The notes under the pieces were generated by a model. That model was not told the origin of the DNA, did no database searches, and was given only the letters and a program-made list of their open reading frames with translations. This document shows positions 2,249 to 34,377 of a stretch of 57,515 bases of DNA, piece after piece. The translations under genes and the position numbers were made by a program. How positions within the stretch are numbered: position 1 is the stretch's first letter; each line of letters opens with the position of its first letter. This DNA comes from an uncultured Bacilli bacterium (GTDB taxonomy: Bacteria; Bacillota_I; Bacilli_A; RF39; UBA660): positions 1 through 57,515 of the forward strand of contig CANRAC010000001.1 in assembly GCA_947628495.1 (NCBI GenBank). Reading direction: 5' to 3'.

Positions 2249-3284
2249 TAATCTTGAACCTAAAGATTTTAAAAGGTTGTTTAGTGTTAATAGTATTTTA
2301 AGTAAGATAATTACTTATAGTGCTTATATCATCCTCAGCTTCTCAATCTTAATTCTAGTTTACTTATCATTTATTGAGACTTTAGGTATTGAGCCTGATT
2401 GGAGAATATTAACTTTATTCACAATTGCCACGGTTTTATTAGCTTGGAACTGTTGGTCAATGTTTTACAAAAAGCATTATGAAGAAATAATGCAAGAAGA
2501 CGTAGACAAGCAAGAAACAAAACAGTATTCTATACATAGCCGATACTATGTAGCAGTCAAGGACTGGAATGATACTGATTTACAATTAGCCATTGATAAG
2601 TTCAACGAAGAGTATACAGCTCGTTGGTTACGTTGGGTTGAGAAAACCACTGGTGTACCAATCGAAAGTTGTGACAAAGTTGAAGTTGACGAAAATGGTA
2701 ACCCTAAACTAGACGATAATGGACAACCCATTATCGTCCATGTAAAGGGTATTAAAGATTTACGCTATAAAGGTTTTTATCACAAGATAATTATGTGGCG
2801 CATTAAGCACCACGTATACCCTAAGTCAGGTTATACTACAGCAATGGAGCTTATGTCATTGTTGTCATATCAAGAGTCAAATTTCAACAAAAGAAATTTA
2901 AAAGCTGATAAACAATTCTTTACTTCACATGCAATTACAAAATTTATTAGTTTGTTGTTAAGTGTGACGATTGTTGCTACAATCATACCTACAATGATAC
3001 AGGGTGAATATTGGACTGCAATCTTAAGGTTGATATTTGCAATATTTACTGTCGTCTCGTCGGTACTGACTGGAGCAATAAATGGTGTCAAAGGCGCTCG
3101 ATTAAAATTATCTGTAGTCGAAGATGCTGCATCTGACCTTGAGCGTTGGGCCGGCAAGAAACCACTACTTGAGCCATATAAAGAAGTTAAACCTGAAGAA
3201 GAGAAACCCGCTGAACCTGTAAAAGAGCCTGAAACTCCAGCTGAAAAGGTTGAAGAAATTTTCAAACAAAAAATACCTAAATAG
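2229..3284 (+). CDS. multi-pass membrane protein with Pro/Glu-rich C-terminus
   Basis: 351-aa ORF with SD GAGGAGGTAAAAG-ATG. Hydrophobic segments at both ends and a PEEEKPAEPVKEPETPAEK tail. Confidence 0.6.
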   Translation: MKRQNNDNLEPKDFKRLFSVNSILSKIITYSAYIILSFSILILVYLSFIETLGIEPDWRILTLFTIATVLLAWNCWSMFYKKHYEEIMQEDVDKQETKQYSIHSRYYVAVKDWNDTDLQLAIDKFNEEYTARWLRWVEKTTGVPIESCDKVEVDENGNPKLDDNGQPIIVHVKGIKDLRYKGFYHKIIMWRIKHHVYPKSGYTTAMELMSLLSYQESNFNKRNLKADKQFFTSHAITKFISLLLSVTIVATIIPTMIQGEYWTAILRLIFAIFTVVSSVLTGAINGVKGARLKLSVVEDAASDLERWAGKKPLLEPYKEVKPEEEKPAEPVKEPETPAEKVEEIFKQKIPK

Positions 3285-14700: not shown

Positions 14701-17700
14701 TTATTGAGCGTGAACATTTACAAAATGTCGAGAAGTTCTTTGGTCTAACTTGGGCTGAACTTATTTCAGGTAATTATGATGCTTCTAAGATTACTCAAGA
14801 AGGACGTAATTTCATTCAAGCTCAATATGATATGAGTGATAGGGCCTCCAGATTGGCTTGCATAAGAGATGCATTGTTTAATATCTCAGGCGGAACATTA
14901 ACTGTTGGTATGGATGGCTCAATTCTCGAGATAATGGAAAAAGACAAATTTGTTAAAGATAAGTATCTTGGCAAAGAAGGCACTAAAGCCTTTAGAGACG
15001 ATTTACGTAAAGGTGTAATTAAAACTGTTGCTGACGTAGTTAAAGTCGACTTAAAGAATAGTACTATCAAGAATATGAAACTTGTTAGAAGTGACACACT
15101 TAATGGTGCTAAAGGTGCATTTGTCTATGGTGATGACCATATTAGTTTCAGTGCTGGTGCAGACGTTAATACATTTATGCATGAATTAACTCATGTTACT
15201 CAATATGCATTAGATGTCACTGGTCAATCTGCTACTGGCGGTTATGCTGGTATGTTTAAATATATGACACCTGAGGCAGCTAAGTCATTAGACAACTATA
15301 TTGCTGAGAAGTTCCCGCTCACATATAATTATATGGTAAATCATAAAATATCTACTTATAATACTATATACTTTATGTTGGCAGGTGAACTACAAGCAAA
15401 TAGTACACTTGGCACTCATATGTTTGACGTCGGTTTCACATTCGATAAAGCCGGCACAGTTCTTGTTAGTCCAGATGGTAAAGAGCGTTGGAACTTAAAA
15501 GCTAATCAGTCTGATGCTCAAAAACAATTTAGACGAAATGTAGCTAAGGCTCGTCGAGAACTGAGTAAAGAGATTAAAAATCAGCAACAAGCAAATACTA
15601 CTGAAAATACTCAAACTACAAAAGCTACTACTGAAGCTAAAACTGAAACTAAGGCTGCTAGTCAATTAGACGAGAGAACCACTAAAGCATTAGATGAAGT
15701 AGTTAATAAAAATGTAAAGAAGGCAACTCGTGCTACTATCAATCAAGTGAACAATGCTACATTATATAAGGGTATGAATGTAAGTAAAGTCACTGAATTT
15801 GATAATACTAAAGGCAATAAGAAACGTATAGTGTCAAATGCTATATGGCTTACTGACAATAAGAATGTTGCTGAGTCTTATGCTAATAATAAACGAGCTT
15901 CTGCAACTGTTTATGATAGTAAAGTATCTATAAGCAATCCATTAGTCATCGATGCTAAAGGCCAAGCATTCTCTAGTATTATGGGTAACATTACGTCTGA
16001 CCAAATTGCAGTATATGCTCAAGAGCATGGCTATGACTCCCTTGTTATAAAGAATGTTCTTGATATTGGTCCATATTTAGGTAATGTGACTAATAGAGAA
16101 AATAGTATGAAACCAAGTACAGACGTCGTTATATTTGATAAAACTAAAGCAAAGATAACAAATGAAACTAAATACAGTGAGGATGAGACTTTAGACAATT
16201 TAGATAAAGAGTATACTGCTACTAAGCAAGAAGATAGAGGACAATTAGTTGGTGCAAACAAAAAGACTCAAGACGCATTTAATAATTTATCTGAAGATGC
16301 TATTGTTCAAATTATGAATTCAACTTCAGAAGATGTTGATTTAACACCTGAAGAAGAGCAATACGGTCTAGAGTTAGCAAAGGCATTGAAGATTAGACGT
16401 TTAACTCCTAAAGAAGAGTTTGCTCTAATGGGAGTTAAGGCCGAGGACTTTGCTCGAATTGCAGCCAATCAGAGTGATGCAAGTTTGTATCATTTAGCCG
16501 GAGATAGTATTATTGTTGACGTACTTAAAAATATATTCGACAAACTATATACAGATGGCTACTTAACCAAACCTGTTCGTTTAATAGAATTCTTTGCTGG
16601 TTATGGTGCACAAAACTTTGCTCTTGACTATTTAGGTAAAGATTACGAAAGTTGGAAAATTGCTGAATGGGCTGTAAAATCTATTCAAGCTTACAAAGAT
16701 GCTCATCATTCAACTGATACTAAGGACTATGCTGCTAATATGACTAAATCTGAGCTACTAGATTATTTAGTAAATATTGGTGTAAGTCTAAACTACAATA
16801 GTCCGGCAGGTCGTGAGTCTTTAAATACTAAGAGTCTACAAGAGTTAAAAGATATTTACAATAACATTCAGGCCACTCATAACTTAGTCAATATTCAAAA
16901 AGTGACTGGTGAGAGTTTGGAAATCACTGACACAGATAGTCATGATTATGTATTAACCTATTCGTTCCCTTGTCAAGATTTATCTCGGGCTGGTAAACGA
17001 GCGGGTATGCACGGTCAAGATACTTCTACTGGTACTCAGTTATCTTTGTTTGAAACAATTGAAAATGCTAGTCAAATCGAAACTCAAACACGTAGTGGTC
17101 TATTATGGGAAGTCGACAGAATATTAAAAGAGTTGTATGATGCTGACAAACCATTGCCTCAAGTACTTATAATGGAGAATGTGCCTGAAGTGCATAACTC
17201 TGTTAATAGGACTGACTTCAAACAATGGTTATCTAATCTACAAAAATATGGTTATACTAATAGTTATACTGATATAAAAGGTAGTGATTATGGTATACCA
17301 CAAAAACGTGTTAGAACTATTATGGTAAGTACTTTAAATAATAAAGCATTTACTTTCCCAGCTAAACAACAATTAAAGTCGTCTATGATGGACTATCTAG
17401 ACAAGAATGTTGATAACAAATATTACTTAACTGATAAACAAGCTAGAACATTTATGAGCTATCGTGAGTCATTTGATAATAATAAAACTACTCATCCAAT
17501 CAATACAAGTATAGCCTCTACTTTGACTACTAAACAGGAGAAGCGAGCTCAAGGTGGTAACTTCTATAGTCCACTTGTTGATAATGACGTCGACTTATAT
17601 GATTTGTTACACCCAACTAAGAATAGTGTACAAAATACTATTGATGCTTTAAATCAAGTCAAAGCTGGTCAAAAGATAACTGCTAGTCAACAAAAAATGT

Positions 17701-20700
17701 GGAGTGAGGATCGTGATTTAAGTCTAAATAAAAATTCTCGTCGTAGAAATAAAATGACTCAAGAAGAATTAAATAAATATAACCGGGACAGATATATTAC
17801 TAATAAAGAAGCACGCAAGTCTAACTTGAAATACTATATTCAAAAAGGCGTTACTATTAGATTACATCCAGGTGTCGCAGCATTTGTTGAAGCAACTACT
17901 CACGATTTTACAAAATTACCAACTATATTGCAAAATAAAATAGTTTCAGGAAAATTACTTTATAGTGATATTCTTGACTATATTAACACTGCAGCAAATA
18001 TGGATGATTATACATTTAAGGCAATTGCTAAATATGTGTTTAATAATGAACGACTTGCCAAATTGGATGTTAAAACATTACTTAAATTAGAAGACAGCTT
18101 GCATGAATTTGCTATGGCTGCATATTTGACTAAAGAACCTGATAAATATTTAACACCTAAACAAATGGCAGATACTTATAAAGAAGTTATTGCAAATAGT
18201 AGTCCTGAAAAAATCGAATGGGCTCAAAAATTTACGGAAAATATAGTACGAACTGATAGAGGTGGACACAATAAATATATCGAAGCAATACCACAAACAA
18301 ATCAGCTCAATGAGTCATTCTTTAAAAAGTATGATGGCACATTAGCTGGTATGCGTGAAATAAATAATTTGGCTAAAGCTGTTGCTAACATATATGATAC
18401 TCATCAAGTAGCTCGAGAAAATCAAAAAACTGCTACAGTTGAATATGACTATAGCACTACCGTAATTATTAAGAAAAATGACGACATTTCTAAAACGCTA
18501 GATAGTATTGATAAAGTTGAGAAGATGAATACTATTGAAGCTTATTATACAGATGTATTGATTAAACGTTTACAAGAAAAAATGGCAACTGAAGGTATTC
18601 GACCTGATAAAGAAGCAGTAATTGCTTTGAGACGTAAAATCGACGACATGGTTGATGATTTAGATAAATTGTCCGACACTGAACTTAATGCTAAATATCT
18701 AGAAGTATTAAATCAGAATAGTCAACAAAAGAAAAGTCTATCTGCTGTTACTGCTACAGCTACAATGCAAAGAACACCATATGAAGAACAAGAACGTTCA
18801 ATAAAAAATATTAAAGATACGTTTAGAGGCGTTGGTCGTACAATGACTCGTTGGCTTAAAAGTACCGAAGATGCTACTGATACTGAAAGGTTCTATAATA
18901 GATTGCCTGACAATATTAAGAAATGGTTTGACCCAAATAATGGTTATAAGCTAGTTTCAGATTATTATAAACTAAGTAAACAAGAAATTCTCGACTTACA
19001 AAGTAAAATACAAGCCGCTCGTGACCAAGTGAAACATTGGGTGAAAGCTGAAGAAGCTACTAAAGTTGCACTTAAAAAAAGTAAAGAACGTTTGTCAAAA
19101 CTACAAAAAGAATATAAAACATATCGTGAAAAAACTGAGGCTACTTTGAAAGAGAATAAAACCTTACGTCAAAAGGTACAAGTTGAGCACGTAGTTCGTA
19201 TTGAGGGCACTAATGTTACAAGTAGTTCTCCATCAAACCGTGTTGTTGAAGAGATATTAAAGACTAGCTGGAATAAGAAACGTATGGGCGAAGTACAAGA
19301 GCTTGATAATAATATTGAGCATGCAGTGGCTAATGCAAATACGTTCTTTAAAGAAAATGCTAATACTTTATTGTCAGCAAGCACGACAGAACTTGAAGAA
19401 GCTATTGCATTCTTTGCTAATAATACTACTAAGTTGACTGAAGACGAATTTGCTCGATTTAATGCTTTAAGAACTTACTTCTTTGGTTGGGTGCTTGAAG
19501 CAAATAAGAATGGACAAATTACTCTTAATGCAAATCTTAAACAACAAGTAAACAATATTATGCGTAATATGGCATCTAACTATGGTACTGGTTTGGCTGT
19601 GTGGAATAATATTCGACAAAGGTTAAATCCATTAGATAGTATGCGTTCGCAAGATATTGAGGTTGGTGGTATCACCCTTAATGACGACTTAAAAGACAAG
19701 TTGTTTGATGCTATTGAGTCTAATGATGTTGACGTAATGACTAAAACATATGAAGAGATTACTGAGTGGCTTGACGAACAACAATCTAGCAAGAAGGGTG
19801 TATTAAGACGTATAGTCGGCGTGCGCTCAATGGCTATGTTGTCTTCTCCACTTACTTGGTTAAGAAATAAAATGTCTAACTTTATGTTAAAACGTTTAAA
19901 TACATTATCTAGTAAAATAGGTAATGCAATGTTTAAAGGTAAAACTATGGCTGGACAGTTGAAGATGAACCAACAAGTAACTCCTGAAATACAAAAGTTT
20001 ATTACTGACAATATTATTGATAACGGTTTCTTTGACACATTTGTATCTAACTTGTCTAAGTTTAATGTAAGTGATATTGTTGCTAAAAACCAAAATAAGA
20101 TTGCTAAAGGCGAAACTTTGACTAGAGAAGAGATTACTACTCACTTAGTTCTCAAAGCAATTTACAATGAATACTATAACAATAATATGTTTAAGTCTAA
20201 ATTGTTAAATGACTTGCATAAGAATTTAATGAAGGTGATGAGTGATGACTCTTATGTGCGTGAAGCTGCTGTAAGGTATTTTGGTAAGATATTAGCTGAA
20301 AAGAAATATAGTCTCAAAGATGGCAAAATGACTGATGCTATAATGAATGACTTCTCAACTGCTATTGGTCTTGCACTTAATGACTATATGCACTCTGACA
20401 ACTTCTTCAACAATGTTGAACGTTGGTTATCTGATAGAAGTGAGCTTGGTTGGTTTGCTTATAAATTGATAATGCCTTATGCTGCATCATCTTGGAACTG
20501 GTTTAAGGCTGCTATAAGATATAGTCCTATTGGTCTTGGTCGTGCTATTTATAGAATAACTCACCTTGAACAACAGGTGGCTAAAGCCGAAGCAGATTAT
20601 ATCGCAGGTAAATCTAATGTATCTCCTGAACTTACAGAATACTTAATTCGCCGCGACTTAGGCTCTGGTGTAATTGGTACTGTGGCTATGGGACTTGGTG

Positions 20701-21629
20701 CATTACTTGCCGGTCTTGGCTTTATGCGACTTGAGGATGACGACTATGGTAAGCCTAAACTTCACATTGGTAATCTTGTTATTGACGTATCTGACATATT
20801 TGGTAGTTCTAGTGTTCTGGCTGGTGCTGCATTTGTTACCGGTATACAAGAGAAAGGTTGGACTTGGGAAGGTGTGCTAGATGCTTTGAATAGATTAGCA
20901 GATGTGACTATTGACGATTTACCAGTTATGGACATTGTTCAAATGGACATGTACTCTAATGGTTCATTCGATATGGGTCTTAATCAACTTGAGAGTATTG
21001 CATTAAGCTTTATACCTAATATCTTAAGCTGGTTTGCTGGTCTAACTTATACTGGCACTCTGAACAAACAGACATTCTTAGATAGAGCACTAGCTAAAAT
21101 ACCATTTGCCGCTAGATTAGTCGAAAAGAAGGTTGACCCTTATACTGGCAAGACTGACTCTTGGGCTGATTGGGTAGGACGTGCTGTTCCTTACTTCAGC
21201 TGGGATGCTGCATCTCAAAATGAACGTAAGACTACAGCATTAGGTTTAACTAAGACTATGCTTCGTGGACAGTATAAAGTTAATGGTGAAGACTTTAATG
21301 TTACAGGTAAAGACTTGACTGAAATCAATAAGACTTATGGTACTTTAAATGCTGAAGACTTAACTAAGTTCTATGAAAATAAATTAGCTGTTTCTGTTAA
21401 ACAAGAAAATGGCAAATATAAAACAATGACCTATAATCAAATGACCACTAAGCAACGACAGAATGCTGTATCAAGTATTATGCAAAATAATGCTGACCTT
21501 GTTAAGATTATTGCTTGGCTCAAAGCTGGTAATAAATATTACGCATCAAGCACTATTTATAATAAACTTGTTAAGTTAGGTATTACTAAAAATCTATATC
21601 GTGGCTCTAAAGGCTTTGTTAAAGGTTAA
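11757..21629 (+). CDS. giant polyvalent (multidomain, probably virion-packaged/ejected) protein, 3290 aa
   Basis: Single uninterrupted ORF with SD TAGGAGGTAAA-ATG. Has Gly-rich hydrophobic segments near the N-terminus (SGLLSFVGGVVNFFG; SMVISAGVSAIPGGAAIAG) and the C-terminus (VIGTVAMGLGALLAGLGF). Internal HELTH zincin motif, ART-like domain and C5-MTase motifs. Confidence 0.7.
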   Translation: MEVRNKVGSDRSDLYRGSGQLGSTLDYLMYNDPSTYYYQKLRSTNNQYLRDDYWSEAARRGETDQLLASLLSWENLDSNLQAAKKELESFTQTGDEEKDNKKKKELEDKVNHLSNLNSNYLDKVKDYADKGYEDYNTYMLAMTLPLFDDPEKKERVDEASGYNFGSYTDKEWAEKVLDSIFERYDVQIAEAEKENMNWFQKVGATIGSGLLSFVGGVVNFFGDVVNLGEGILNCFFNFSDDATWNDRFLWAFSDESTGFFEQAGDLFNDMAYKVAYESTDMVNMVDAYDAGYRPASWEGMIFGTDRSQGVGASYRTWGKWWSGAFSSIGYMLPSMVISAGVSAIPGGAAIAGKVGTSVFYSGIFSGNISDTVSAAANEGISYKDLNAGEVVSNGLIKAGLQWAVEVALGKILGFSGLDQAIGIGRGAGKFGNLVGGMGGKLGAIGVTALRAGRSMAKEGLEEVLQDMSDSFVDAIYGTTNSKIADLYSSRALETINPMNLLESFVVGALTEGVISSLQGVKYILPKNRAVQTDIDGNVQAMGFFQTLNFNAALETMNDWNNILNDSKATTEAKADVAMKMSAAINTIGSVLKSFGQSDALKVNQILDIYAAGEKKTELLEKANLSNEQYATKLYDSFLTHYAEVERKYVPKPLKTKIKETFAKLADKFKKKGVTEVNNIITNKIDGNDPDVPLKSNNVENFKAALEKLGAEAIIGTNGNIITKSEDIVVVPNKLLETGDLATIIQGVAFDQVQQAVISALSPAQRKMIVRQYEKATGTTCTTEQAVQALLFDKAFYTRILLASEEGHKYNVEALQVLATINKVVQAKASPLLKNGKLANDAYNVLMQKIQKTMQTGLVTYCTKYARIDLGEITNDILSPELKEVIKNHQNTIFSEFVDEGIKDTKTQAPDSERTTRFDTYLQKFSSSLSAEEITELKQKARSTNVNDRVDAYTMLTVLSRNSTSPNATKDKLVYLPTSPDGIIEREHLQNVEKFFGLTWAELISGNYDASKITQEGRNFIQAQYDMSDRASRLACIRDALFNISGGTLTVGMDGSILEIMEKDKFVKDKYLGKEGTKAFRDDLRKGVIKTVADVVKVDLKNSTIKNMKLVRSDTLNGAKGAFVYGDDHISFSAGADVNTFMHELTHVTQYALDVTGQSATGGYAGMFKYMTPEAAKSLDNYIAEKFPLTYNYMVNHKISTYNTIYFMLAGELQANSTLGTHMFDVGFTFDKAGTVLVSPDGKERWNLKANQSDAQKQFRRNVAKARRELSKEIKNQQQANTTENTQTTKATTEAKTETKAASQLDERTTKALDEVVNKNVKKATRATINQVNNATLYKGMNVSKVTEFDNTKGNKKRIVSNAIWLTDNKNVAESYANNKRASATVYDSKVSISNPLVIDAKGQAFSSIMGNITSDQIAVYAQEHGYDSLVIKNVLDIGPYLGNVTNRENSMKPSTDVVIFDKTKAKITNETKYSEDETLDNLDKEYTATKQEDRGQLVGANKKTQDAFNNLSEDAIVQIMNSTSEDVDLTPEEEQYGLELAKALKIRRLTPKEEFALMGVKAEDFARIAANQSDASLYHLAGDSIIVDVLKNIFDKLYTDGYLTKPVRLIEFFAGYGAQNFALDYLGKDYESWKIAEWAVKSIQAYKDAHHSTDTKDYAANMTKSELLDYLVNIGVSLNYNSPAGRESLNTKSLQELKDIYNNIQATHNLVNIQKVTGESLEITDTDSHDYVLTYSFPCQDLSRAGKRAGMHGQDTSTGTQLSLFETIENASQIETQTRSGLLWEVDRILKELYDADKPLPQVLIMENVPEVHNSVNRTDFKQWLSNLQKYGYTNSYTDIKGSDYGIPQKRVRTIMVSTLNNKAFTFPAKQQLKSSMMDYLDKNVDNKYYLTDKQARTFMSYRESFDNNKTTHPINTSIASTLTTKQEKRAQGGNFYSPLVDNDVDLYDLLHPTKNSVQNTIDALNQVKAGQKITASQQKMWSEDRDLSLNKNSRRRNKMTQEELNKYNRDRYITNKEARKSNLKYYIQKGVTIRLHPGVAAFVEATTHDFTKLPTILQNKIVSGKLLYSDILDYINTAANMDDYTFKAIAKYVFNNERLAKLDVKTLLKLEDSLHEFAMAAYLTKEPDKYLTPKQMADTYKEVIANSSPEKIEWAQKFTENIVRTDRGGHNKYIEAIPQTNQLNESFFKKYDGTLAGMREINNLAKAVANIYDTHQVARENQKTATVEYDYSTTVIIKKNDDISKTLDSIDKVEKMNTIEAYYTDVLIKRLQEKMATEGIRPDKEAVIALRRKIDDMVDDLDKLSDTELNAKYLEVLNQNSQQKKSLSAVTATATMQRTPYEEQERSIKNIKDTFRGVGRTMTRWLKSTEDATDTERFYNRLPDNIKKWFDPNNGYKLVSDYYKLSKQEILDLQSKIQAARDQVKHWVKAEEATKVALKKSKERLSKLQKEYKTYREKTEATLKENKTLRQKVQVEHVVRIEGTNVTSSSPSNRVVEEILKTSWNKKRMGEVQELDNNIEHAVANANTFFKENANTLLSASTTELEEAIAFFANNTTKLTEDEFARFNALRTYFFGWVLEANKNGQITLNANLKQQVNNIMRNMASNYGTGLAVWNNIRQRLNPLDSMRSQDIEVGGITLNDDLKDKLFDAIESNDVDVMTKTYEEITEWLDEQQSSKKGVLRRIVGVRSMAMLSSPLTWLRNKMSNFMLKRLNTLSSKIGNAMFKGKTMAGQLKMNQQVTPEIQKFITDNIIDNGFFDTFVSNLSKFNVSDIVAKNQNKIAKGETLTREEITTHLVLKAIYNEYYNNNMFKSKLLNDLHKNLMKVMSDDSYVREAAVRYFGKILAEKKYSLKDGKMTDAIMNDFSTAIGLALNDYMHSDNFFNNVERWLSDRSELGWFAYKLIMPYAASSWNWFKAAIRYSPIGLGRAIYRITHLEQQVAKAEADYIAGKSNVSPELTEYLIRRDLGSGVIGTVAMGLGALLAGLGFMRLEDDDYGKPKLHIGNLVIDVSDIFGSSSVLAGAAFVTGIQEKGWTWEGVLDALNRLADVTIDDLPVMDIVQMDMYSNGSFDMGLNQLESIALSFIPNILSWFAGLTYTGTLNKQTFLDRALAKIPFAARLVEKKVDPYTGKTDSWADWVGRAVPYFSWDAASQNERKTTALGLTKTMLRGQYKVNGEDFNVTGKDLTEINKTYGTLNAEDLTKFYENKLAVSVKQENGKYKTMTYNQMTTKQRQNAVSSIMQNNADLVKIIAWLKAGNKYYASSTIYNKLVKLGITKNLYRGSKGFVKG
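15180..15194 (+). other. HExxH zincin metalloprotease motif (HELTH, aa 1142-1146 of the giant protein)
   Basis: FMHELTHVTQY read directly. The frame was checked against the 11757 start. Confidence 0.5.
15753..16145 (+). other. ART-like (ADP-ribosyltransferase-like, polyvalent-protein type) domain, aa ~1333-1463
   Basis: NATLYKGM...IWLTDNKNVAESYA...SNPLVIDAKG...HGYDSLVIKNV...DVVIFD follows the strand/motif pattern I associate with ART domains of polyvalent proteins. Assigned by eye only. Confidence 0.35.
16395..17575 (+). other. C5-cytosine DNA methyltransferase domain with permuted motif order (IX-X-I-IV-VI-VIII-TRD), aa ~1547-1940
   Basis: Motifs in order: RRLTPKEEFALMGV (IX), LAGDSIIVDVLKNIF (X-like), IEFFAGYGAQ (I), YSFPCQDLSRAGKRAG (IV, catalytic Cys at 16971-16973), IMENVPEV (VI), GIPQKRVRTIMVS (VIII), ASTLTTKQ (TRD-like). 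Confidence 0.75.
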
Positions 21630-28130: not shown

Positions 28131-29417
28131 TTAGATTTTTCTTAATTTTGTTCTTGCTAATTTTTTTACTTTTTCTTTATAGTCTTTAATGCCATCATTT
28201 AATATTAGGTAATTATATGTCTGTAAGTATAACCAAATAATATCTGCAATTTCAACTGCAACGTTTGGGGTACAACCTCTAGTAGTTAATGCTGCAAAAC
28301 CAATTCGTAAACCAGAAGTATTTGCCGGACTTTCATCGTCTTCAGGTAACAAATTTTTATTGGTTGTTATACCAATATCTTCTAGCCTCAACTGAGCTGT
28401 AATACCTAACAAATTAAATGTATCTTTTGTGTTTAATAGTACTAAGTGATTATCAGTATCGGACACATTGCCACCAAGTTCTCTAATACGTTTTGAGAAT
28501 GCTTGCATATTTGCTTTTAACATTTTAATATACTTTTTGAACTCGTCAGTATATGCTTCTTCAAAACAAATTGCTTTTGCTGCAATTGTATTTTCTAATG
28601 GACCACCTTGATAATAAGGGAATACGGCTTGATTAACATATTTAATTAAACGCTCATCATTAGTTAAAATCAAACCACCCCGAGGTCCTCTTAGAGTTTT
28701 GTGAGTTGTAGTGGTCACAATATCTGCATAAGGTATTGGACTCATACATTCACCTGCTGCAACTAGACCTGCAATATGTGCCATATCAACCATCAATTTA
28801 CAGTCATATTTAATTGCTAACTCTTTGAATTTACTAAAGTCAATTTCATAAGGGTATGAAGAGTAGCCAGCCAATATAACGTCAGGTCTATTTGCTTTAA
28901 TTGCTTCTTCTACTAAGTCAAAATGAATATGTCGATCTTCACCTAATTTATAATAACTAAAGTCATACAAATTAGAACTAAAACTTACAGAAGAGCCGTG
29001 AGATAGGTGTCCACCGTGTCCTAACTCCATAGCCAAAATTTTCATTTGTCTATGTACTTTTACTTTGCCTGTGCCACGAACATATAATTTGTGGTCTTCT
29101 TCTAGCATTTTCTCTAAAGCTCGATATGCTTCAGCATTTGCTTGGCTGCCACTATGCGGTTGAACATTTGCAAATTTACAATTAAACAAACGACATGCTC
29201 TATCAATTGCTAATTGCTCAAGTTGGTCTACATTCTCGCAACCACCATAGTATCTATGACCAGGATAGCCTTCAGCATACTTATTTGTTAAACAGCTCGA
29301 CAATGCTTGTCTAACAGATTTACTAGCAAAATTTTCACTAGCGATAAGTTCGAGACATTCATTTTGTCTCTTGTTTTCTGCTTTAATCAATGCAAAAACT
29401 TTCTTATCTTTTTTCAT
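28131..29417 (-). CDS. glyA: serine hydroxymethyltransferase
   Basis: Hallmark PLP-lysine motif VTTTTHKTLRGPRGG, plus ELIASENF and YPGHRYYGGCE. Start placed at the ATG at 29417 (MKKDKKVFALI) after CAGGAGGACTAT. Confidence 0.9.
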   Translation of the reverse strand: MKKDKKVFALIKAENKRQNECLELIASENFASKSVRQALSSCLTNKYAEGYPGHRYYGGCENVDQLEQLAIDRACRLFNCKFANVQPHSGSQANAEAYRALEKMLEEDHKLYVRGTGKVKVHRQMKILAMELGHGGHLSHGSSVSFSSNLYDFSYYKLGEDRHIHFDLVEEAIKANRPDVILAGYSSYPYEIDFSKFKELAIKYDCKLMVDMAHIAGLVAAGECMSPIPYADIVTTTTHKTLRGPRGGLILTNDERLIKYVNQAVFPYYQGGPLENTIAAKAICFEEAYTDEFKKYIKMLKANMQAFSKRIRELGGNVSDTDNHLVLLNTKDTFNLLGITAQLRLEDIGITTNKNLLPEDDESPANTSGLRIGFAALTTRGCTPNVAVEIADIIWLYLQTYNYLILNDGIKDYKEKVKKLARTKLRKI

Positions 29418-29444
29418 ATAGTCCTCCTGTGCACTTAGTAGTGC

Positions 29445-29490
29445 TGGTGAGCCAGGTGAGAATTGCACTCACTATTCACTTGTCTGACTC
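29445..29490 (-). ncRNA. tRNA-like acceptor/T-arm minihelix with encoded ACCA in the glyA 5' leader
   Basis: The - strand reads GAGUCAG-ACAAGUGAAUA-GUGAG-UGCAAUU-CUCAC-CUGGCUC-ACCA. This gives a 7-bp acceptor-like helix (one U.G), a 5-bp stem with a 7-nt T-like loop, then A+CCA. Confidence 0.4.
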
Positions 29491-29493
29491 ATA

Positions 29494-29522
29494 AAAAGTT
29501 TCTAGAAGGTCTAGAAACTTTT
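29494..29522 (-). terminator. perfect 13-bp hairpin, intrinsic terminator (usable on both strands)
   Basis: AAAAGTTTCTAGA-cct-TCTAGAAACTTTT followed by TAT on the - strand. Its core GUUUCUAGA/UCUAGAAAC is followed by UUUUUAU. The + strand also has a T/A-rich tail. Confidence 0.7.
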
Positions 29523-29539
29523 AATATAATATACAGAAG

Positions 29540-29637
29540 AAGACCATCAGACTTCTGTGCATATTTAAAGTATCAAAGGAGGTATACCTTAGATAGTAGA
29601 TTTGTTAAATGGGGTATATTTAACAATGATGGTCTTT
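29540..29637 (-). ncRNA. 98-nt helix-closed RNA module
   Basis: AAGACCAUCA (29637-29628) pairs with UGAUGGUCUU (29549-29540). Inside are a 9-bp hairpin UUGUUAAAU-auacccc-AUUUAACAA and a competing ACAGAAG/CUUCUGU helix. Confidence 0.3.
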
Positions 29638-29659
29638 ACTGACGCGTCAGCTCGTCAGT

Positions 29660-29733
29660 CAGGAAGGTGAGATTTGCACTCACATCTGAGGCGCCTGGTC
29701 GGCCTTATGTTACTACCGTTACACCACTTCCTG
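29660..29733 (-). ncRNA. 74-nt tRNA-like cloverleaf (anticodon position CCA; non-canonical anticodon loop and T-loop)
   Basis: CAGGAAG-UG-GUGU-AACGGUAGUA-ACAU-A-AGGCC-GACCAGG-CGCCU-CAGAU-GUGAG-UGCAAAU-CUCAC-CUUCCUG. Perfect 7-bp acceptor, 4-bp D stem, 4 bp plus C.C in the anticodon stem, 5-nt variable loop, 5-bp T stem. U8, A14, GG and G53-C61 are present. U33 and U55 are absent. Confidence 0.5.
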
Positions 29734-29740
29734 GCAAAAG

Positions 29741-29821
29741 ATAGGTTTGGTGCGTCGGGCCGAATATCACTTTCGATACACACCAATTCGTGAGCCGGCC
29801 ATCTCCTTATCTATAACCTAT
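29741..29821 (-). ncRNA. 81-nt helix-closed module with pseudoknot potential
   Basis: Closing helix AUAGGUU/AACCUAU. Inside, GGCC..GAAU (29800-29786) pairs with AUUCGGCC (29765-29758). This is interleaved with UGGUGUG (29785-29779) / CGCACCA (29754-29748). Confidence 0.3.
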
Positions 29822-29831
29822 CTCTTGAAGT

Positions 29832-29894
29832 GCCTGATAACAGAGTTGCACTGTTAGTGGCCGCTATGGTTGGCCGCCACGCTCTTGCTCAGAC
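29832..29894 (-). ncRNA. 63-nt tRNA-like module lacking a D-arm
   Basis: GUCUGAG...AUCAGGC (6 of 7 bp, one U.G) encloses the long hairpin GUGGCGGC-caaccaua-GCGGCCAC and the T-arm-like AACAG-UGCAACU-CUGUU. Confidence 0.3.
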
Positions 29895-29897
29895 ATG

Positions 29898-29919
29898 TAG
29901 GTGCTTTAAGGTGCACCTA
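29898..29919 (-). other. hairpin just after the SSB-like gene stop
   Basis: UAGGUGC-accuuaaa-GCACCUA, 7 bp, with no U-tract. Possibly a processing or stability element rather than a terminator. Confidence 0.3.
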
Positions 29920-29932
29920 AACCTGTGGTAAA

Positions 29933-30469
29933 TTATTCTCCAAATTCGTCGCCAGACAAATGAGAAGTCAATGGTTCGCCATCACGTGTTTTTAATACAT
30001 TGTTCAACACTGCACTAACACCGCGACGTCCATCTCCACTGTAAGCGAAGAATGTCATAGAAACTCTACCATACATACCGCTGTATACTTCAGTTGGGTC
30101 AATAATTTCTTGCCTGTCGGCATTCAAAACTTTTGGTTTGAACTTAGTAGACAAACGAATATAATAATTACCTTTATATTCAGGGTATTTATTATTTATT
30201 AGTTCTCCTAAGTCGTCAACTGCTGTATCACCATCTTTAAATGTGTGATTAACGTTTGTAGGTACTCTACCACCAAAGTGTTTTTGTGCCCCTGCTTCAG
30301 CTGCTGCTTGAATTGCAGCTTTAATAGCATTTACAGTTTTGGTATCAGTTTTTGGGATGATAGCCGTAACTGAGTATTTTGGCGTATCGCCTTCTTTCAT
30401 AGCTTTTGGTTCAAATACGTTTACGAATGACAATCTGCATTCACCTGTAACAACTTGATTATTGTTCAT
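29933..30469 (-). CDS. ssDNA-binding protein, DUF2815 type
   Basis: N-terminal GECRLSFVNVFEPKA...KYSVTAIIPKTD and C-terminal YSGMYGRVSMTFFAY...GVSAVLNNV match the DUF2815 pattern. Paired with the adjacent DUF2800 nuclease, as is usual. Confidence 0.7.
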   Translation of the reverse strand: MNNNQVVTGECRLSFVNVFEPKAMKEGDTPKYSVTAIIPKTDTKTVNAIKAAIQAAAEAGAQKHFGGRVPTNVNHTFKDGDTAVDDLGELINNKYPEYKGNYYIRLSTKFKPKVLNADRQEIIDPTEVYSGMYGRVSMTFFAYSGDGRRGVSAVLNNVLKTRDGEPLTSHLSGDEFGE

Positions 30470-33588: not shown

Positions 33589-33713
33589 AAAAGATAATAA
33601 TAATTTCACTTTATTTTTATCTTTTTATAATTATTTTTTACTTTTATATAAAATTGAAATAAATTACTTAAAAATTTAATTTTTAGAGATTTTTCAAATT
33701 TATTTTTAAATAA

Positions 33714-33835
33714 AAATATCACTATTTTTAATTTTAGGATAGATTTGATATTCTTTAAATATCTTGATTGATATATTTTTTAAAGAATATTTTAATCAAT
33801 AAGAAATGTCCTAAATTAAATCAATAGTGATATTT
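33714..33835. promoter_or_regulatory. nested imperfect inverted repeats in a 296-bp extremely AT-rich intergenic region
   Basis: AAATATCACTAT (33714-33725) / ATAGTGATATTT (33824-33835). ATATTCTTTAAA (33748-33759) / TTTAAAGAATAT (33779-33790). TTTTAGGAT (33732-33740) faces GTCCTAAAT (33808-33816). Confidence 0.5.
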
Positions 33836-33843
33836 GATTTTAG

Positions 33844-34377
33844 CTATTTGCTATTATTTTTATACTCAATATAGCGAAGCTTGATACGATTTATTAGTCG
33901 TTGCAATTCGCTGCGACCTACATGCATTTCATTGATAATATACAACTTAGTTTTATCACTAAGAAATGCCTGTGCAACTGCATATTCAGCTGGTGACAGA
34001 GTAGACAAGAAACACTCAAAGTCCAAGTCATGCTCTAAGTCACCAATTTCTTCAATGTAAGTCTCAGTATCATAATTAGGTGAATCAACAATATATCGAT
34101 TATCACTTCGCAAAAACATGAGTATCTCATTTTGTATACATTTGCTTGCATAAGTAGCAAAGGTAAAGTTCATTTCAGGCTTATAAGTCCTGATTGCCTT
34201 TAATAGTCCAATAGCACCTTGTTGCTCACAATCATCACTAAAGATATTTAATTTAAAGAGGACATGCTTAATTAAGCCATAATTCTCAGTCAGAAGTTCT
34301 TCTTCGTTTTCGACTCTTTTCCAAGCGCCTAGCTTTTTGCTTCTCAGCTCTTTCGAGCTTCTTCTGCTGCTTGTCAT
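33844..34377 (-). CDS. sigma-70 family RNA polymerase sigma factor (sporulation-sigma-like)
   Basis: Region 2: GAIGLLKAIRTYKPEMNFTFATYASKCIQNEILMFLR. Region 4 HTH: LSPAEYAVAQAFLSDKTKLYIINEMHVGRSELQRLINRIK. Confidence 0.8.
   Translation of the reverse strand: MTSSRRSSKELRSKKLGAWKRVENEEELLTENYGLIKHVLFKLNIFSDDCEQQGAIGLLKAIRTYKPEMNFTFATYASKCIQNEILMFLRSDNRYIVDSPNYDTETYIEEIGDLEHDLDFECFLSTLSPAEYAVAQAFLSDKTKLYIINEMHVGRSELQRLINRIKLRYIEYKNNSK

What the first reader, a model, noticed from the sequence alone, without database searches (positions are those of the whole stretch)
29445..29932. ORF-free, GC-enriched ~490-nt block made of back-to-back tRNA-like RNA modules
No ORF of 60 aa or more exists in any frame between 29418 and 29932, yet this is the most GC-rich stretch I noticed in an AT-rich genome. 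Read on the - strand (the sense of the flanking genes), it parses into helix-closed modules separated by only 3-22 nt: 63 nt (29894-29832), 81 nt (29821-29741), 74 nt (29733-29660), 98 nt (29637-29540), a terminator (29522-29494) and a 46-nt minihelix (29490-29445). Three modules carry the same 17-nt hairpin, a 5-bp stem with a 7-nt loop UGCAAnU: AACAG-UGCAACU-CUGUU, GUGAG-UGCAAAU-CUCAC and GUGAG-UGCAAUU-CUCAC. Each is followed immediately by the 3' strand of a 6-7-bp acceptor-like helix. That is tRNA acceptor/T-arm geometry, but with G where the universal U55 sits. I cannot assign the block to any named RNA family. Possibilities are a decayed tRNA array, tRNA mimics or decoys against tRNA-targeting defences, or tRNA-like punctuation for RNase P/Z processing.
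Basis: partly seen in the sequence, partly recalled or inferred. Interest (0 to 1): 0.85.

Follow-up and report, generated by a model that had tools for sequence, protein, structure and literature searches.

The report
Phage tRNA-like RNA processing array
Between a phage's DNA-binding-protein gene and the next gene lies a 500-base non-coding stretch with three tRNA look-alikes that keep only the part of a tRNA that the cell's tRNA-trimming enzymes recognise; they most likely act as cutting signals that chop the transcript into stable pieces, and similar elements sit at this spot in many related phages.

Summary
Window 29932-29418 (- strand) is ORF-free, is the most GC-rich 400-nt bin of the window, and folds far better than shuffles (z -7.5).

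It holds exactly three elements with a 12-bp acceptor/T-stem stack and a UGCAAnU T loop. They are M1 (29894-29832), M3 (29733-29660) and M5 (29490-45, which ends in ACCA). There are none elsewhere in the window.

None is a decoding tRNA, and Rfam and ARAGORN find nothing. M3 is a degenerate tRNA-Trp homolog. "G55" is not an anomaly: it recurs in real phage tRNAs and covaries with A18.

M2 and M4 are not tRNA-like. They are helix-closed "cargo" domains, and M4 displays an anti-Shine-Dalgarno loop.

The slot after this Enc34/gp2.5-type SSB gene carries tRNA or tRNA-like elements in all close relatives. In distant relatives they are about 150-fold enriched there, and their sequences vary greatly.

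Best reading (confidence about 0.45, inferred): the top-half tRNA mimics are RNase P/Z handles. They free a hairpin-ended SSB mRNA, release two structured small RNAs and define the SHMT mRNA 5' end. No transcript or cleavage data exist. I rate it a new variant of a known kind.

The parts
29933..30469 (-). Upstream gene: Enc34/gp2.5-type ssDNA-binding protein (SSB), 178 aa
   Evidence: Pfam PF10991 Enc34_ssDNA-bd, E 3e-54. Annotated as a Gp2.5-like SSB in isolate phages.
29898..29919 (-). H0: hairpin UAGGUGC-ACCUUAAA-GCACCUA, 13 nt after the SSB stop codon, with no U tract. Proposed 3'-end protector of the SSB mRNA.
   Evidence: Folds at -10.6 kcal/mol, z -3.35. Conserved in position in the close relatives, with compensatory changes: GGUGU/ACACC, GCAGUUGU/ACAACUGC, GGCGU/ACGCC.
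29832..29894 (-). M1: 63-nt tRNA-like module. Layout: GUCUGA - GC-AAGA-GC - 24-nt arm with an 8-nt loop - UAACAG-UGCAACU-CUGUUA - UCAGGC. It has a 6+6 bp coaxial stack, leader ..CAU|G and tail A-CUU (no CCA).
   Evidence: The MFE is exactly this fold, z -2.62. 7/7 acceptor in the alternative register. Not called by ARAGORN or Rfam.
29737..29826 (-). M2: roughly 90-nt domain closed by an 11-13 bp helix (AAGAGAUAGGUU / AACCUAUCUUUU), with a GC-rich interior and a possible pseudoknot (GGCCG/CGGCC crossing UUGGUGUG/CGCACCAA). It is not tRNA-like and is the first 'cargo' domain.
   Evidence: MFE -27.2 kcal/mol, z -2.84. The alternative 8-bp helix gives -24.8 kcal/mol. Inverted repeat I2. No homolog found.
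29660..29733 (-). M3: 74-nt cloverleaf, a degenerate tRNA-Trp(CCA) homolog. Layout: CAGGAAG-UG-GUGU-AACGGUAGUA-ACAU-A-AGGCC-GACCAGG-CGCCU-CAGAU-GUGAG-UGCAAAU-CUCAC-CUUCCUG, then A73 and CUG (no CCA).
   Evidence: ARAGORN calls it only at -ps80. The D-arm region resembles the genuine tRNA-Trp of L143. The anticodon loop is GACCAGG and position 73 is A, against the invariant CUCCAAA and G73 in 16 phage tRNA-Trp. The cloverleaf is -18.5 kcal/mol against an MFE of -25.0.
29638..29659 (-). H5: hairpin ACUGACG-AGCUGACG-CGUCAGU, starting at the M3 discriminator. It would be the 5'-terminal hairpin of the second cargo RNA.
   Evidence: Present in the global MFE. Inverted repeat I4.
29540..29636 (-). 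M4: domain closed by a 10-bp helix AAGACCAUCA/UGAUGGUCUU. It contains hairpin UUGUUAAAU-AUACCCC-AUUUAACAA and hairpin GUAU-ACCUCCUUUG-AUAC.
   Evidence: MFE -23.3 kcal/mol, z -3.76. Inverted repeat I3, 100% complementary.
29570..29587 (-). Anti-Shine-Dalgarno loop hairpin inside M4. The loop ACCUCCUUUG equals the 3' tail motif of 16S rRNA; CCUCC lies at 29582-29578.
   Evidence: Sense-strand CCTCC occurs 5 times in 3.0 kb of the homologous spacers (5 of 11 lineages, always in loops) against 4 times in 48.9 kb elsewhere, Poisson P 6e-6.
29492..29522 (-). Intrinsic-terminator-like hairpin AAAAGUUUCUAGA-CCU-UCUAGAAACUUUU plus UAU
   Evidence: 13-bp stem in the MFE. Inverted repeat I1. Weak sau-19 terminator-type match. 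The consensus scan missed it because the stem is A/U-rich.
29445..29490 (-). M5: 46-nt tRNA-like minihelix GAGUCAG-ACAAGUGAAUA-GUGAG-UGCAAUU-CUCAC-CUGGCUC-A-CCA. It has a 7+5 bp stack, an 11-nt D-loop-like linker, an encoded CCA and leader UUUUUAU|G.
   Evidence: The MFE is this fold. 7/7 acceptor. Homolog of the 3' part of the L197 element, which has the same T stem but U55. A 26-nt repeat, 85% identical, is shared with M3.
29431..29444 (-). H6: small hairpin GCACU-ACUA-AGUGC between the CCA end and the SD. It would be 5'-proximal on a processed SHMT mRNA.
   Evidence: Present in the MFE. L197 has an analogous hairpin, ACUAC-AAAAA-GUAGU, at the same place.
28131..29428 (-). Downstream gene: SD AGGAGG (29428-29423), ATG at 29417, serine hydroxymethyltransferase, 428 aa
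   Evidence: Pfam PF00464 SHMT, E 5e-123. An identical protein occurs on three other contigs.

Best explanation
The block is the locally expanded version of a conserved 'tRNA-like slot' that follows the Enc34/gp2.5-type SSB gene in this group of phages. It is transcribed on the - strand with the replication genes.

Three modules (M1, M3, M5) keep only the top half of a tRNA. That is a 12-bp acceptor/T-stem stack, a T loop, and a D-loop-like partner that forms the elbow through the A18:G55 variant. Their anticodon domains are lost or degenerate.

These modules are substrates for the host tRNA-end enzymes. RNase P would cut at their 5' sides. RNase Z would cut after the discriminator of the CCA-less M1 and M3.

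Cutting would produce four products:
1. An SSB mRNA that ends in hairpin H0.
2. A small RNA of about 100 nt (M2) whose two ends are locked in its closing helix.
3. A small RNA of about 165 nt (H5-M4-terminator) that displays an anti-Shine-Dalgarno loop.
4. From read-through transcripts, an SHMT mRNA that starts with the M5 minihelix and hairpin H6.

Shown here: the structures, their uniqueness in the window, their synteny, and the retention of the top halves.
Inferred: transcription of the block, every cleavage, and any role of the released RNAs.
For: 1. Only the top half is intact. Acceptor and T stems are fully paired in all three modules. The anticodon domain is absent (M5), non-canonical (M1) or off-consensus at U33, position 37/38 and G73 (M3).

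2. The elbow is retained. G55 T loops pair with AG-type D loops in real phage tRNAs. The linkers of M1, M3 and M5 follow that rule. U55-type relatives (L141, L143, L196, L201) have GG in their linkers.

3. Synteny.
- All 14 close-relative spacers examined carry at least one such element right after H0; I count these as about 10 distinct lineages.
- In 56 distant SSB loci, the strict descriptor hits 0.447/kb in the 500 nt after the SSB gene against 0.003/kb elsewhere.
- ARAGORN called a tRNA in only one of L003-L019.
- Armless tRNA-likes are conserved between L143, L196 and L201.

4. The leader is ..AU| before a +1 G in most elements. I recall U-1/G+1 as favourable for bacterial RNase P (my knowledge).

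5. Every predicted product has helix-protected ends: H0, the M2 closing helix, H5, the terminator and M5/H6.

6. In isolate phages the same slot holds a plain terminator or hairpin. This argues that the slot is a site of RNA 3'-end formation.

7. An analogous terminator-minihelix-RBS layout follows the major head gene in unrelated phages. Its acceptor stem shows compensatory changes: CAAGUU/AACUUG, CAUGUU/AACAUG, CGUGU/ACACG.

8. RNase P is known to cleave phage M3 RNA, the P1/P7 C4 precursor and mRNAs (PMC11143913). Plant mitochondrial t-elements define mRNA ends (PMC1920247).
Against: - There are no transcript, end-mapping or cleavage data.
- M1-M4 have no homologs beyond 99.4%-identical strains, so covariation cannot be tested for them.
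- The three strain SNPs fall in unpaired positions, but SNP density equals that of the flanking genes.
- The M3 cloverleaf is 6.5 kcal/mol above its MFE.
- M3 has C at +1 and a ..UGC| leader.
- One strain variant changes the D-loop GG to AG.
- A terminator lies upstream of M5, so M5 is reached only by read-through or from an unidentified promoter.
- Many relatives have no spacer at all between the SSB and polymerase genes, so the element is dispensable.
- The concerted switch to G55 in this phage is not explained by a pure processing role.
Confidence: 0.45

Rival explanations
1. Decaying tRNA-gene island. The slot is a landing site for phage tRNA genes. In this phage the occupants are pseudogenes and unrelated debris with no present function.
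For: - The slot content is hypervariable between relatives that share 77-89% SSB identity. Genuine tRNAs (Gln, Trp, an interrupted Arg) occur there.
- M3 is a degenerate tRNA-Trp.
- M2 and M4 have no detectable homologs.
- SNP density in the block is the same as in the flanking genes.
Against: - Random decay should hit acceptor and T stems as often as anticodon arms. Yet all 36 top-half pairs are intact.
- The A18:G55 elbow rule is obeyed in all three modules.
- Armless tRNA-likes are conserved across diverged phages.
- tRNA-like elements are about 150-fold enriched after the SSB gene in distant relatives, and ARAGORN called a tRNA in only one of L003-L019.
- Every inter-module domain is closed by a long helix.
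Confidence: 0.15
2. Trans-acting mimics. After processing and CCA addition, the tRNA top halves and the anti-SD RNA act in trans. They could be decoys or sponges for host tRNA- or rRNA-directed defence toxins, for tRNA-binding enzymes, or for Shine-Dalgarno sequences.
For: - All three T loops in this phage carry G55, while every close relative examined has U55. This suggests lineage-specific selection on the T loop.
- M5 encodes ACCA.
- The anti-SD motif is enriched in the slot, P 6e-6.
- Phage tRNAs are known to counter tRNA-targeting defences (preprint 10.1101/2023.03.15.532788, listed).
Against: - No target is identified and no defence or anti-defence gene is adjacent.
- G55 and U55 tRNAs coexist in single phage arrays, so G55 alone does not imply evasion.
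- The fixed position next to the SSB gene fits a cis role better.
- This reading is compatible with the best explanation rather than exclusive of it.
Confidence: 0.15
3. Replication element. The structured transcript, or the DNA itself, in the replication module serves as an origin. RNase P cleavage at a tRNA-like structure would create a 3'-OH RNA primer, as proposed for RNase MRP at mitochondrial origins.
For: - The slot lies inside the replication module (DUF2800 nuclease, SSB, helicases, DNA polymerase) and is syntenic with the SSB gene over large distances.
- An A/T-rich stretch lies next to the terminator.
Against: - No iterons or direct repeats other than the T-arm paralogy.
- GC skew follows gene orientation only.
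- The helices contain G-U pairs and the fold is stronger on the - strand. That points to an RNA-level element, not a DNA-level one.
- Many relatives lack the spacer entirely.
Confidence: 0.07
4. Cis-regulatory leader of the SHMT gene: a riboswitch, a T-box-like element or an attenuator that uses the terminator at 29522-29494.
For: - A terminator and structured domains lie upstream of a folate/one-carbon gene.
- M4 contains mutually exclusive pairings: CAGAAG/CUUCUG against the closing helix (by inspection).
Against: - No THF, ZTP, glycine, T-box or other riboswitch match even at E<=10.
- Relatives that lack SHMT altogether (L141-L145) still carry tRNA-like elements in the slot, and the slot tracks the SSB gene rather than SHMT.
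- No antiterminator complementary to the terminator stem is evident.
Confidence: 0.05

Closest known systems
Plant mitochondrial t-elements and the mitochondrial tRNA-punctuation model
   Same: tRNA-like structures, often incomplete tRNAs, sit between or next to protein-coding genes and are cut by RNase P/Z to create mRNA 5' and 3' ends (PMC1920247). The element retains the acceptor/T-arm half.
   Different: Those act in organelles with PRORP/tRNase Z. Here the setting is a bacteriophage operon, the elements use an A18:G55 elbow, and they alternate with helix-closed non-tRNA domains. Cleavage is not demonstrated here.
tRNA-linked small-RNA precursors (MHV68 vtRNA-pre-miRNA TMERs, MALAT1-mascRNA, plant tRNA-snoRNA genes)
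   Same: A viral or cellular non-decoding tRNA-like module serves as an RNase P/Z handle that releases an adjacent structured RNA (my knowledge).
   Different: All of those are eukaryotic. Here the cargos are unknown bacterial-type RNAs, one with an anti-SD loop and an intrinsic terminator, and the array is embedded in an mRNA.
Non-tRNA RNase P substrates of phages (phi80 M3 RNA, P1/P7 C4 antisense RNA precursor) and the T4 tRNA cluster with its extra stable RNAs
   Same: Phage transcripts with acceptor/T-arm-like folds are matured by host RNase P (PMC11143913).
   Different: No sequence or family relation; no Rfam match. Those are single regulatory RNAs or true tRNA operons. They are not an intercistronic array tied to an SSB gene.
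T7 intercistronic RNase III sites
   Same: A phage uses host endonuclease sites between genes so that upstream mRNAs end in a protective hairpin (my knowledge). The T7 SSB is the gp2.5 type, as the SSB here is.
   Different: The enzyme differs (RNase III against RNase P/Z) and so does the structure (a long duplex against a tRNA mimic).
Bacterial/phage YrlA Y RNAs
   Same: Non-coding RNAs with a tRNA-like T arm, D arm and acceptor-like stem. M. smegmatis YrlA is cut by RNase P and receives CCA (PMC4201824).
   Different: YrlA is defined by a Ro60-binding helix (GNCGAAN0-1G) and adjacency to rsr. I saw neither here: no matching motif by inspection, and no Ro60 among the 20 ORFs scanned.
Canonical phage tRNA gene arrays
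   Same: The same GUGAG-UGCAANU-CUCAC T arm and A18:G55 elbow occur in real phage tRNAs. M3 descends from a tRNA-Trp.
   Different: None of the three modules passes ARAGORN defaults or the Rfam tRNA model, and their anticodon loops are non-functional or missing.

Membership tests
tRNA (Rfam RF00005 / ARAGORN) | Scores above threshold with a tRNA covariance model or detector | tested here: not met
   No tRNA hit at the gathering score in the whole window, nor at E<=10 in 29350-30000. ARAGORN finds 0 genes at default and -ps settings. Only M3 appears, at -ps80.
tRNA (Rfam RF00005 / ARAGORN) | 7-nt anticodon loop with U33 and purine 37 on a 5-bp stem | tested here: not met
   M3 has loop GACCAGG (A33) and a C31xC39 mismatch. 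M1 has an 8-nt loop on an irregular arm. M5 has no anticodon arm.
tRNA (Rfam RF00005 / ARAGORN) | 7-bp acceptor stacked on a 5-bp T stem, a 7-nt T loop with U54/A58/C56 and the G53:C61 pair | tested here: met
   All three modules have 7+5 bp (M1 alternatively 6+6) and loop U-G-C-A-A-N-U. M3 and M5 have G53:C61.
tRNA (Rfam RF00005 / ARAGORN) | D-loop/T-loop elbow pairs 18:55 and 19:56 | tested here: inconclusive
   The modules have AG in the D loop or linker together with G55-C56. This matches the A18:G55 covariation seen in 61/71 G55 phage tRNAs. The tertiary contact itself cannot be tested with these tools.
tmRNA | tRNA-like domain plus a tag reading frame detectable by ARAGORN | tested here: not met
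   ARAGORN tmRNA search finds nothing in the whole window, nor with -m -ps80 on the block. There is no G3:U70 in M5.
T-box / riboswitch leaders | Match to a curated aptamer or leader model upstream of the regulated gene | tested here: not met
   No T-box, THF, ZTP, glycine or other riboswitch hit at E<=10.
YrlA / Y RNA | Ro60 (rsr) gene adjacent, and a Ro-binding helix with GNCGAAN0-1G | tested here: not met
   No TROVE/Ro60 domain among the 20 ORFs scanned around the block. No matching motif by inspection. No Rfam hit. Definition taken from PMC4201824.
tRNA-like processing signals (t-element type, functional class) | Incomplete tRNA mimic that retains the acceptor/T-arm half, located at gene borders | tested here: met
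   M1 lies 4 nt after H0, which follows the SSB stop codon. M5 ends 28 nt before the SHMT start codon. The same layout is found in all close relatives.
tRNA-like processing signals (t-element type, functional class) | Cleaved in vivo or in vitro by RNase P and/or RNase Z so as to create the mature RNA ends | not testable with these tools
   Needs end mapping or enzyme assays. Only indirect features are available..AU|G leaders, the 12-bp stack, CCA on M5, and non-CC at positions 74-75 of M1 and M3.
Viral 3' tRNA-like structures (TLS) | Located at the 3' end of an RNA genome, aminoacylatable, with a pseudoknotted acceptor | tested here: not met
   The elements are internal to a dsDNA phage operon and have ordinary acceptor helices. 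Aminoacylation is not testable.

The most novel reading that the evidence does not exclude
The slot after the SSB gene encodes a conserved set of phage 'translation-apparatus mimics'. These are top-half tRNA look-alikes built on an orthogonal A18:G55 elbow, together with a small RNA that displays the 16S rRNA 3'-tail (anti-Shine-Dalgarno) sequence. They would act in trans. Possible roles are titrating Shine-Dalgarno sites, or soaking up host tRNA- or rRNA-directed defence nucleases and modifying enzymes. On this reading they are more than cutting signals.
Probability: 0.15. Interest if true: 0.85.

Novelty: new variant of a known kind. Interest (0 to 1): 0.6.

Why it matters
If the cleavage model holds, a large group of gut and rumen phages uses tRNA mimicry as mRNA punctuation. 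These are the phages carrying the DUF2800 nuclease / Enc34-type SSB / DNA polymerase module, and they include relatives classed as Ca. Heliusvirales.

That mechanism is textbook for mitochondria but has not, to my knowledge, been described for phage operons. It would also be a natural bacterial counterpart of tRNA-flanked small-RNA arrays.

It gives a simple, testable route to two uncharacterised phage small RNAs, one of which carries an anti-SD loop.

The by-product, systematic A18:G55 elbows in phage tRNAs, touches a nearly universal tRNA tertiary pair (G18:Psi55). It may explain why standard tRNA finders and Rfam miss such elements.

Tried and rejected
- Rfam at gathering score on the whole window, and at E<=10 on the block, gave only terminator-type or chance matches.
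- ARAGORN tRNA, tmRNA and mitochondrial modes found nothing usable except M3 at -ps80.
- blastn 'distant' of the block against 50,697 phage records found no match.
- The search for related loci with SHMT failed once on my frame error. It then found no relatives, because the peptide words chosen were not conserved.
- Pattern scans of viral contigs: the M2 core gave 0 hits. The anti-SD hairpin gave 3 hits, all unrelated coding sequence or opposite-strand ribosome-binding sites.
- blastn-short of each module against all held loci showed that only the T arms match.
- I tried to build a covariance model from the relatives' elements. MAFFT could not put the 5' acceptor strands in register because the inner domains range from 9 to 187 nt, so I abandoned that route.

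Ideas considered and dropped:
- attP fragment of a host tRNA: both acceptor strands are present, the T loop is the G55 type, and no integrase was found among the 20 ORFs scanned.
- Hammerhead ribozyme at CUGACGAG...: the GAAA core is missing and there is no Rfam hit.
- A small ORF in M2 (AAGGAG-AUG, 11 codons): there is no spacing between the SD and the AUG.
- Anti-SD loops as ribosome-binding sites of antisense genes: only L142 has a usable start codon; the other four lineages do not (by inspection).
- A promoter-like site at 29959-29932: it is explained by the conserved ...GAA-TAA end of the SSB gene.
Full report
**1. The observation**

On the - strand, the SSB gene (29933-30469) and the SHMT gene (ATG at 29417) are separated by 515 nt.
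- The region contains no ORF of 60 aa or more.
- It holds the most GC-rich 400-nt bin of the window, 0.463.
- The - strand folds at -169.9 kcal/mol, z -7.46 against dinucleotide shuffles. The + strand gives z -4.09.
- The helices contain G-U pairs in the M1 and M5 acceptors, the M3 D stem and the M2 closing helix. The structure is therefore an RNA-level feature in the sense of the flanking genes.

- Perfect 5-bp hairpins with loop TGCAANT occur three times on the - strand and nowhere else in the window. Shuffles give 0.35 per window.
- Each hairpin is followed at once by the 3' strand of a 7/7 acceptor helix. No comparable T-arm/acceptor combination exists elsewhere in the window.
- A strict version of the same descriptor hits only 2 times in 587 kb of other phage sequence.

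**2. Anatomy**

Reading 5' to 3' on the - strand:
- H0, a hairpin without a U tract (29919-29898).
- M1, 63 nt: 6+6 bp stack, small GC-AAGA-GC hairpin, an irregular arm with an 8-nt loop, T arm.
- M2, about 90 nt, closed by an 11-13 bp helix.
- M3, a 74-nt full cloverleaf.
- H5, a hairpin.
- M4, closed by a perfect 10-bp helix. It contains a hairpin whose loop reads ACCUCCUUUG.
- An A/U-rich intrinsic-terminator hairpin followed by UUUUUAU.
- M5, 46 nt: 7-bp acceptor, 11-nt linker, T arm, then A-CCA.
- H6, a small hairpin.
- The SD AGGAGG and the ATG.

M3 and M5 share a 26-nt repeat, 85% identical, covering the T arm and the 3' acceptor strand. So tRNA-like and non-tRNA domains alternate. The block is not a pure tRNA-like array.

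**3. Known families**
- Rfam 15 gives nothing at gathering score for the whole window. At E<=10 on the block it gives only terminator-type or chance matches.
- ARAGORN finds no tRNA or tmRNA. Only at an 80% threshold does it call M3 as tRNA-Trp(CCA).
- The M3 D-arm region resembles a genuine tRNA-Trp found at the same genomic slot in relative L143.
- Sixteen phage tRNA-Trp genes all have anticodon loop CUCCAAA, and nearly all have G73. M3 has GACCAGG (A33), a C31xC39 mismatch and A73.
- M1 and M5 have no usable anticodon arm.
- None of the three can be a decoding tRNA.

**4. G55 is a recurrent phage variant, not an anomaly**
- A scan of viral contigs for GTGAG-TGCAANT-CTCAC returned more than 120 stretches. 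About a quarter of the 94 unique contexts are T arms of full-size tRNAs called by ARAGORN at default settings.
- Among 372 unique tRNAs in the fetched loci, UUC T loops go with GG in the D loop in 248 of 249 cases.
- UGC T loops go with AG and no GG in 61 of 71 cases. In 7 more, a GG is present next to the AG.
- The G18:U55 tertiary pair is therefore replaced as a pair by A18:G55.
- Some arrays are almost entirely G55 (L080 16/18, L029 12/15). Others are mixed.
- The window's modules obey the rule: M3 D loop AACGGUAGUA, M5 linker ACAAGUGAAUA, M1 AAGA.
- U55-type tRNA-likes in relatives have GG in the corresponding linker.
- The linkers therefore look like D-loop mimics, and the tRNA elbow is probably kept.
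- I found no description of this covariation in the papers searched. That is absence of evidence only.

**5. Relatives**

Same strain level:
- The identical SHMT protein occurs on three other contigs. Their block is 99.4% identical, with three SNPs, all at unpaired positions.
- SNP density equals that of the flanking genes, 0.58% against 0.59%. This carries no information about selection.

Next-closest phages (SSB 77-89% or SHMT 62-69% identical):
- They keep H0, with compensatory changes, but have quite different cargo.
- L141 has a single 42-nt minihelix abutting the next RBS.
- L143, L196 and L201 share a conserved tRNA-like that lacks an anticodon arm.
- Genuine tRNA-Gln and tRNA-Trp occur (L144, L143).
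- L142 has a tRNA-Arg(CCU) interrupted by 146 nt.
- L197, L144 and L202 have elements of 83-120 nt in which acceptor and T arm enclose a long insert.
- Every one of 14 spacers has at least one acceptor+T-arm element directly after H0.
- The leader is ..AU| before +1 in 11 of 14 elements.
- The last element ends 16-71 nt before the next start codon.

Distant relatives:
- In 56 non-redundant loci with SSB 35-49% identical, the strict descriptor hits 12 times in the 500 nt after the SSB gene (0.447/kb). It hits twice in all other sequence (0.003/kb).
- ARAGORN called a tRNA in only one of L003-L019, and the elements' inner lengths (38-84 nt) are mostly unlike a standard tRNA.
- Other relatives have the polymerase gene directly abutting the SSB gene.
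- In isolate genomes the slot holds a plain terminator or hairpin, or there is no spacer.

The slot after this SSB gene thus appears to be a place where RNA ends are made. tRNA-like elements are one frequent, ancient way of filling it.

**6. The anti-SD motif**
- CCUCC on the sense strand occurs in 5 of 11 distinct spacers, always as ..AU(N)(N)CCUCCU.. in a predicted loop.
- That is 5 in 3.0 kb, against 4 in 48.9 kb of the surrounding sense strand, P 6e-6.
- In L143 and L201 the motif lies in a domain between two tRNA-likes. That domain is closed by a helix with compensatory changes.
- In L205 it is the loop of a long hairpin that starts right after the CCA of a tRNA-like.
- Only one of the five could be a ribosome-binding site for an antisense ORF.
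- The motif does not covary with the SD of the next gene, so it is generic.

**7. A parallel elsewhere**
- In unrelated phages (L028, L031, L083 and L124 groups) a terminator is followed within 1-3 nt by a minihelix with the same T arm, and then by an RBS.
- The acceptor-like stem shows compensatory changes.
- The unit lies after the major head protein gene. That, like the SSB gene, is a gene needed in large amounts.

**8. Mechanism**

Established knowledge (my knowledge):
- Bacterial RNase P needs little more than the 12-bp acceptor/T stack, T loop and elbow, and it prefers U-1/G+1 and a 3' RCCA.
- RNase Z cuts CCA-less precursors after the discriminator.

RNase P is documented to cleave phage M3 RNA, the P1/P7 C4 precursor and mRNAs (PMC11143913). 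tRNA-like t-elements define plant mitochondrial mRNA ends (PMC1920247).

Applied here, cleavage at M1, M3 and M5 yields products whose ends are all buried in helices:
- SSB mRNA ending in H0.
- M2, held by its closing helix.
- H5-M4-terminator.
- M5/H6-SHMT mRNA.

This coherence, the selective retention of the tRNA top half, and the synteny are the basis for my best explanation (confidence 0.45). All cleavage steps, and transcription itself, are inferred.

**9. Rivals**
- A non-functional decaying tRNA island (0.15) fits the variability and the degeneration of M3. It does not fit the intact top halves, the elbow rule, the conserved armless forms or the deep synteny.
- Trans-acting mimics or decoys (0.15) would explain the concerted G55 in this phage and the anti-SD loop. 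They lack any identified target, and this reading is compatible with the processing model.
- An origin or primer role (0.07) and an SHMT riboswitch or attenuator (0.05) have little support. There are no iterons and no aptamer match. The slot tracks the SSB gene, not SHMT.

**10. Verdict**

The block is best filed as a new variant of a known kind: tRNA-like processing elements and tRNA-flanked small-RNA arrays. Here it occurs in a phage replication operon, with a non-standard A18:G55 elbow and an associated anti-SD RNA.

The genome context is a probably lytic phage; no integrase was seen among the 20 ORFs scanned. It carries ligase, dCMP deaminase, ThyX, dUTPase, DUF2800 nuclease, SSB, SHMT, helicases and a polymerase. 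A distant relative (SSB about 47% identical) is classed as Ca. Heliusvirales. The paper describing that order does not mention tRNA or non-coding RNA.

Noticed in passing
Loci L020-L139 (for example L080, L029, L020, L053); window 29855-29839, 29683-29667, 29472-29456: In phage tRNAs the near-universal tertiary pair G18:U55 is replaced as a unit by A18:G55. The D loop has AG and no GG in 61/71 tRNAs with a UGC T loop, against GG in 248/249 with UUC. Some phage tRNA arrays are almost entirely G55 (L080 16/18), others are mixed. I found no description of this in the papers searched.
   Followed up: partly
Window 29587-29570; L142 about 1425-1445; L143 about 3140-3165; L201 about 660-675; L205 about 1300-1335: Hairpin loops display the 16S rRNA 3'-tail / anti-Shine-Dalgarno sequence ((AU)CACCUCCU, ACCUCCUUU) on the sense strand of the post-SSB spacer in 5 of 11 lineages. 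This is a 20-fold enrichment, P 6e-6. Function unknown.
   Followed up: partly
L028/L041/L065/L094, L031/L057/L085/L100, L083, L124 (around the GTGAGTGCAANTCTCAC match): A recurrent unit of terminator hairpin plus U tract, tRNA-like minihelix (compensatory acceptor stems CAAGUU/AACUUG, CAUGUU/AACAUG, CGUGU/ACACG), then RBS. It lies downstream of the major head protein gene and upstream of a phrog_13046 gene. No Rfam family matched the analogous M5 element.
   Followed up: partly
L142 1350-1571: tRNA-Arg(CCU) whose two halves are separated by a 146-nt insert after position 38 (ARAGORN -i). This is too short for a typical group I intron. The insert carries the anti-SD hairpin and, on the opposite strand, a good RBS plus ATG.
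   Followed up: no
L163 and L165, about 100-160 nt after the SSB stop codon: A G55-type hairpin, CCGGG-UGCAAGU-CCCGG, follows the SSB gene in a GC-rich distant relative. The next ORF contains a long (CA)n microsatellite of different length in the two contigs.
   Followed up: no
Window 29898-29889 and 29487-29478: There is 10-nt, 90% complementarity between the 5' strand of M1 (ACAUGUCUGA) and the 5' strand/linker of M5 (UCAGACAAGU), 401 nt apart. It could close the whole block in the unprocessed transcript, or it could be chance.
   Followed up: no
Window 33601-34000: A very A/T-rich intergenic stretch (GC 0.21, the lowest bin of the window) lies between the ThyX gene and the sigma-factor-like gene. 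It is a candidate promoter or origin region.
   Followed up: no
Window 11757-21629 (+): A single 3,290-aa ORF, with two locally GC-richer segments (12.4-13.2 kb and 20.4-21.2 kb). Not examined.
   Followed up: no
L001/L002/L140/L203/L204, spacer about 80-150 nt after the SSB stop codon: The closest relatives (SSB 89% identical) carry a tRNA-like with a deviant T loop, UUGGAGC. It is followed by a hairpin that shows compensatory changes between contigs (GGUG/CACC against GGCG/CGCU) and by a long perfect hairpin before the SHMT RBS.
   Followed up: no
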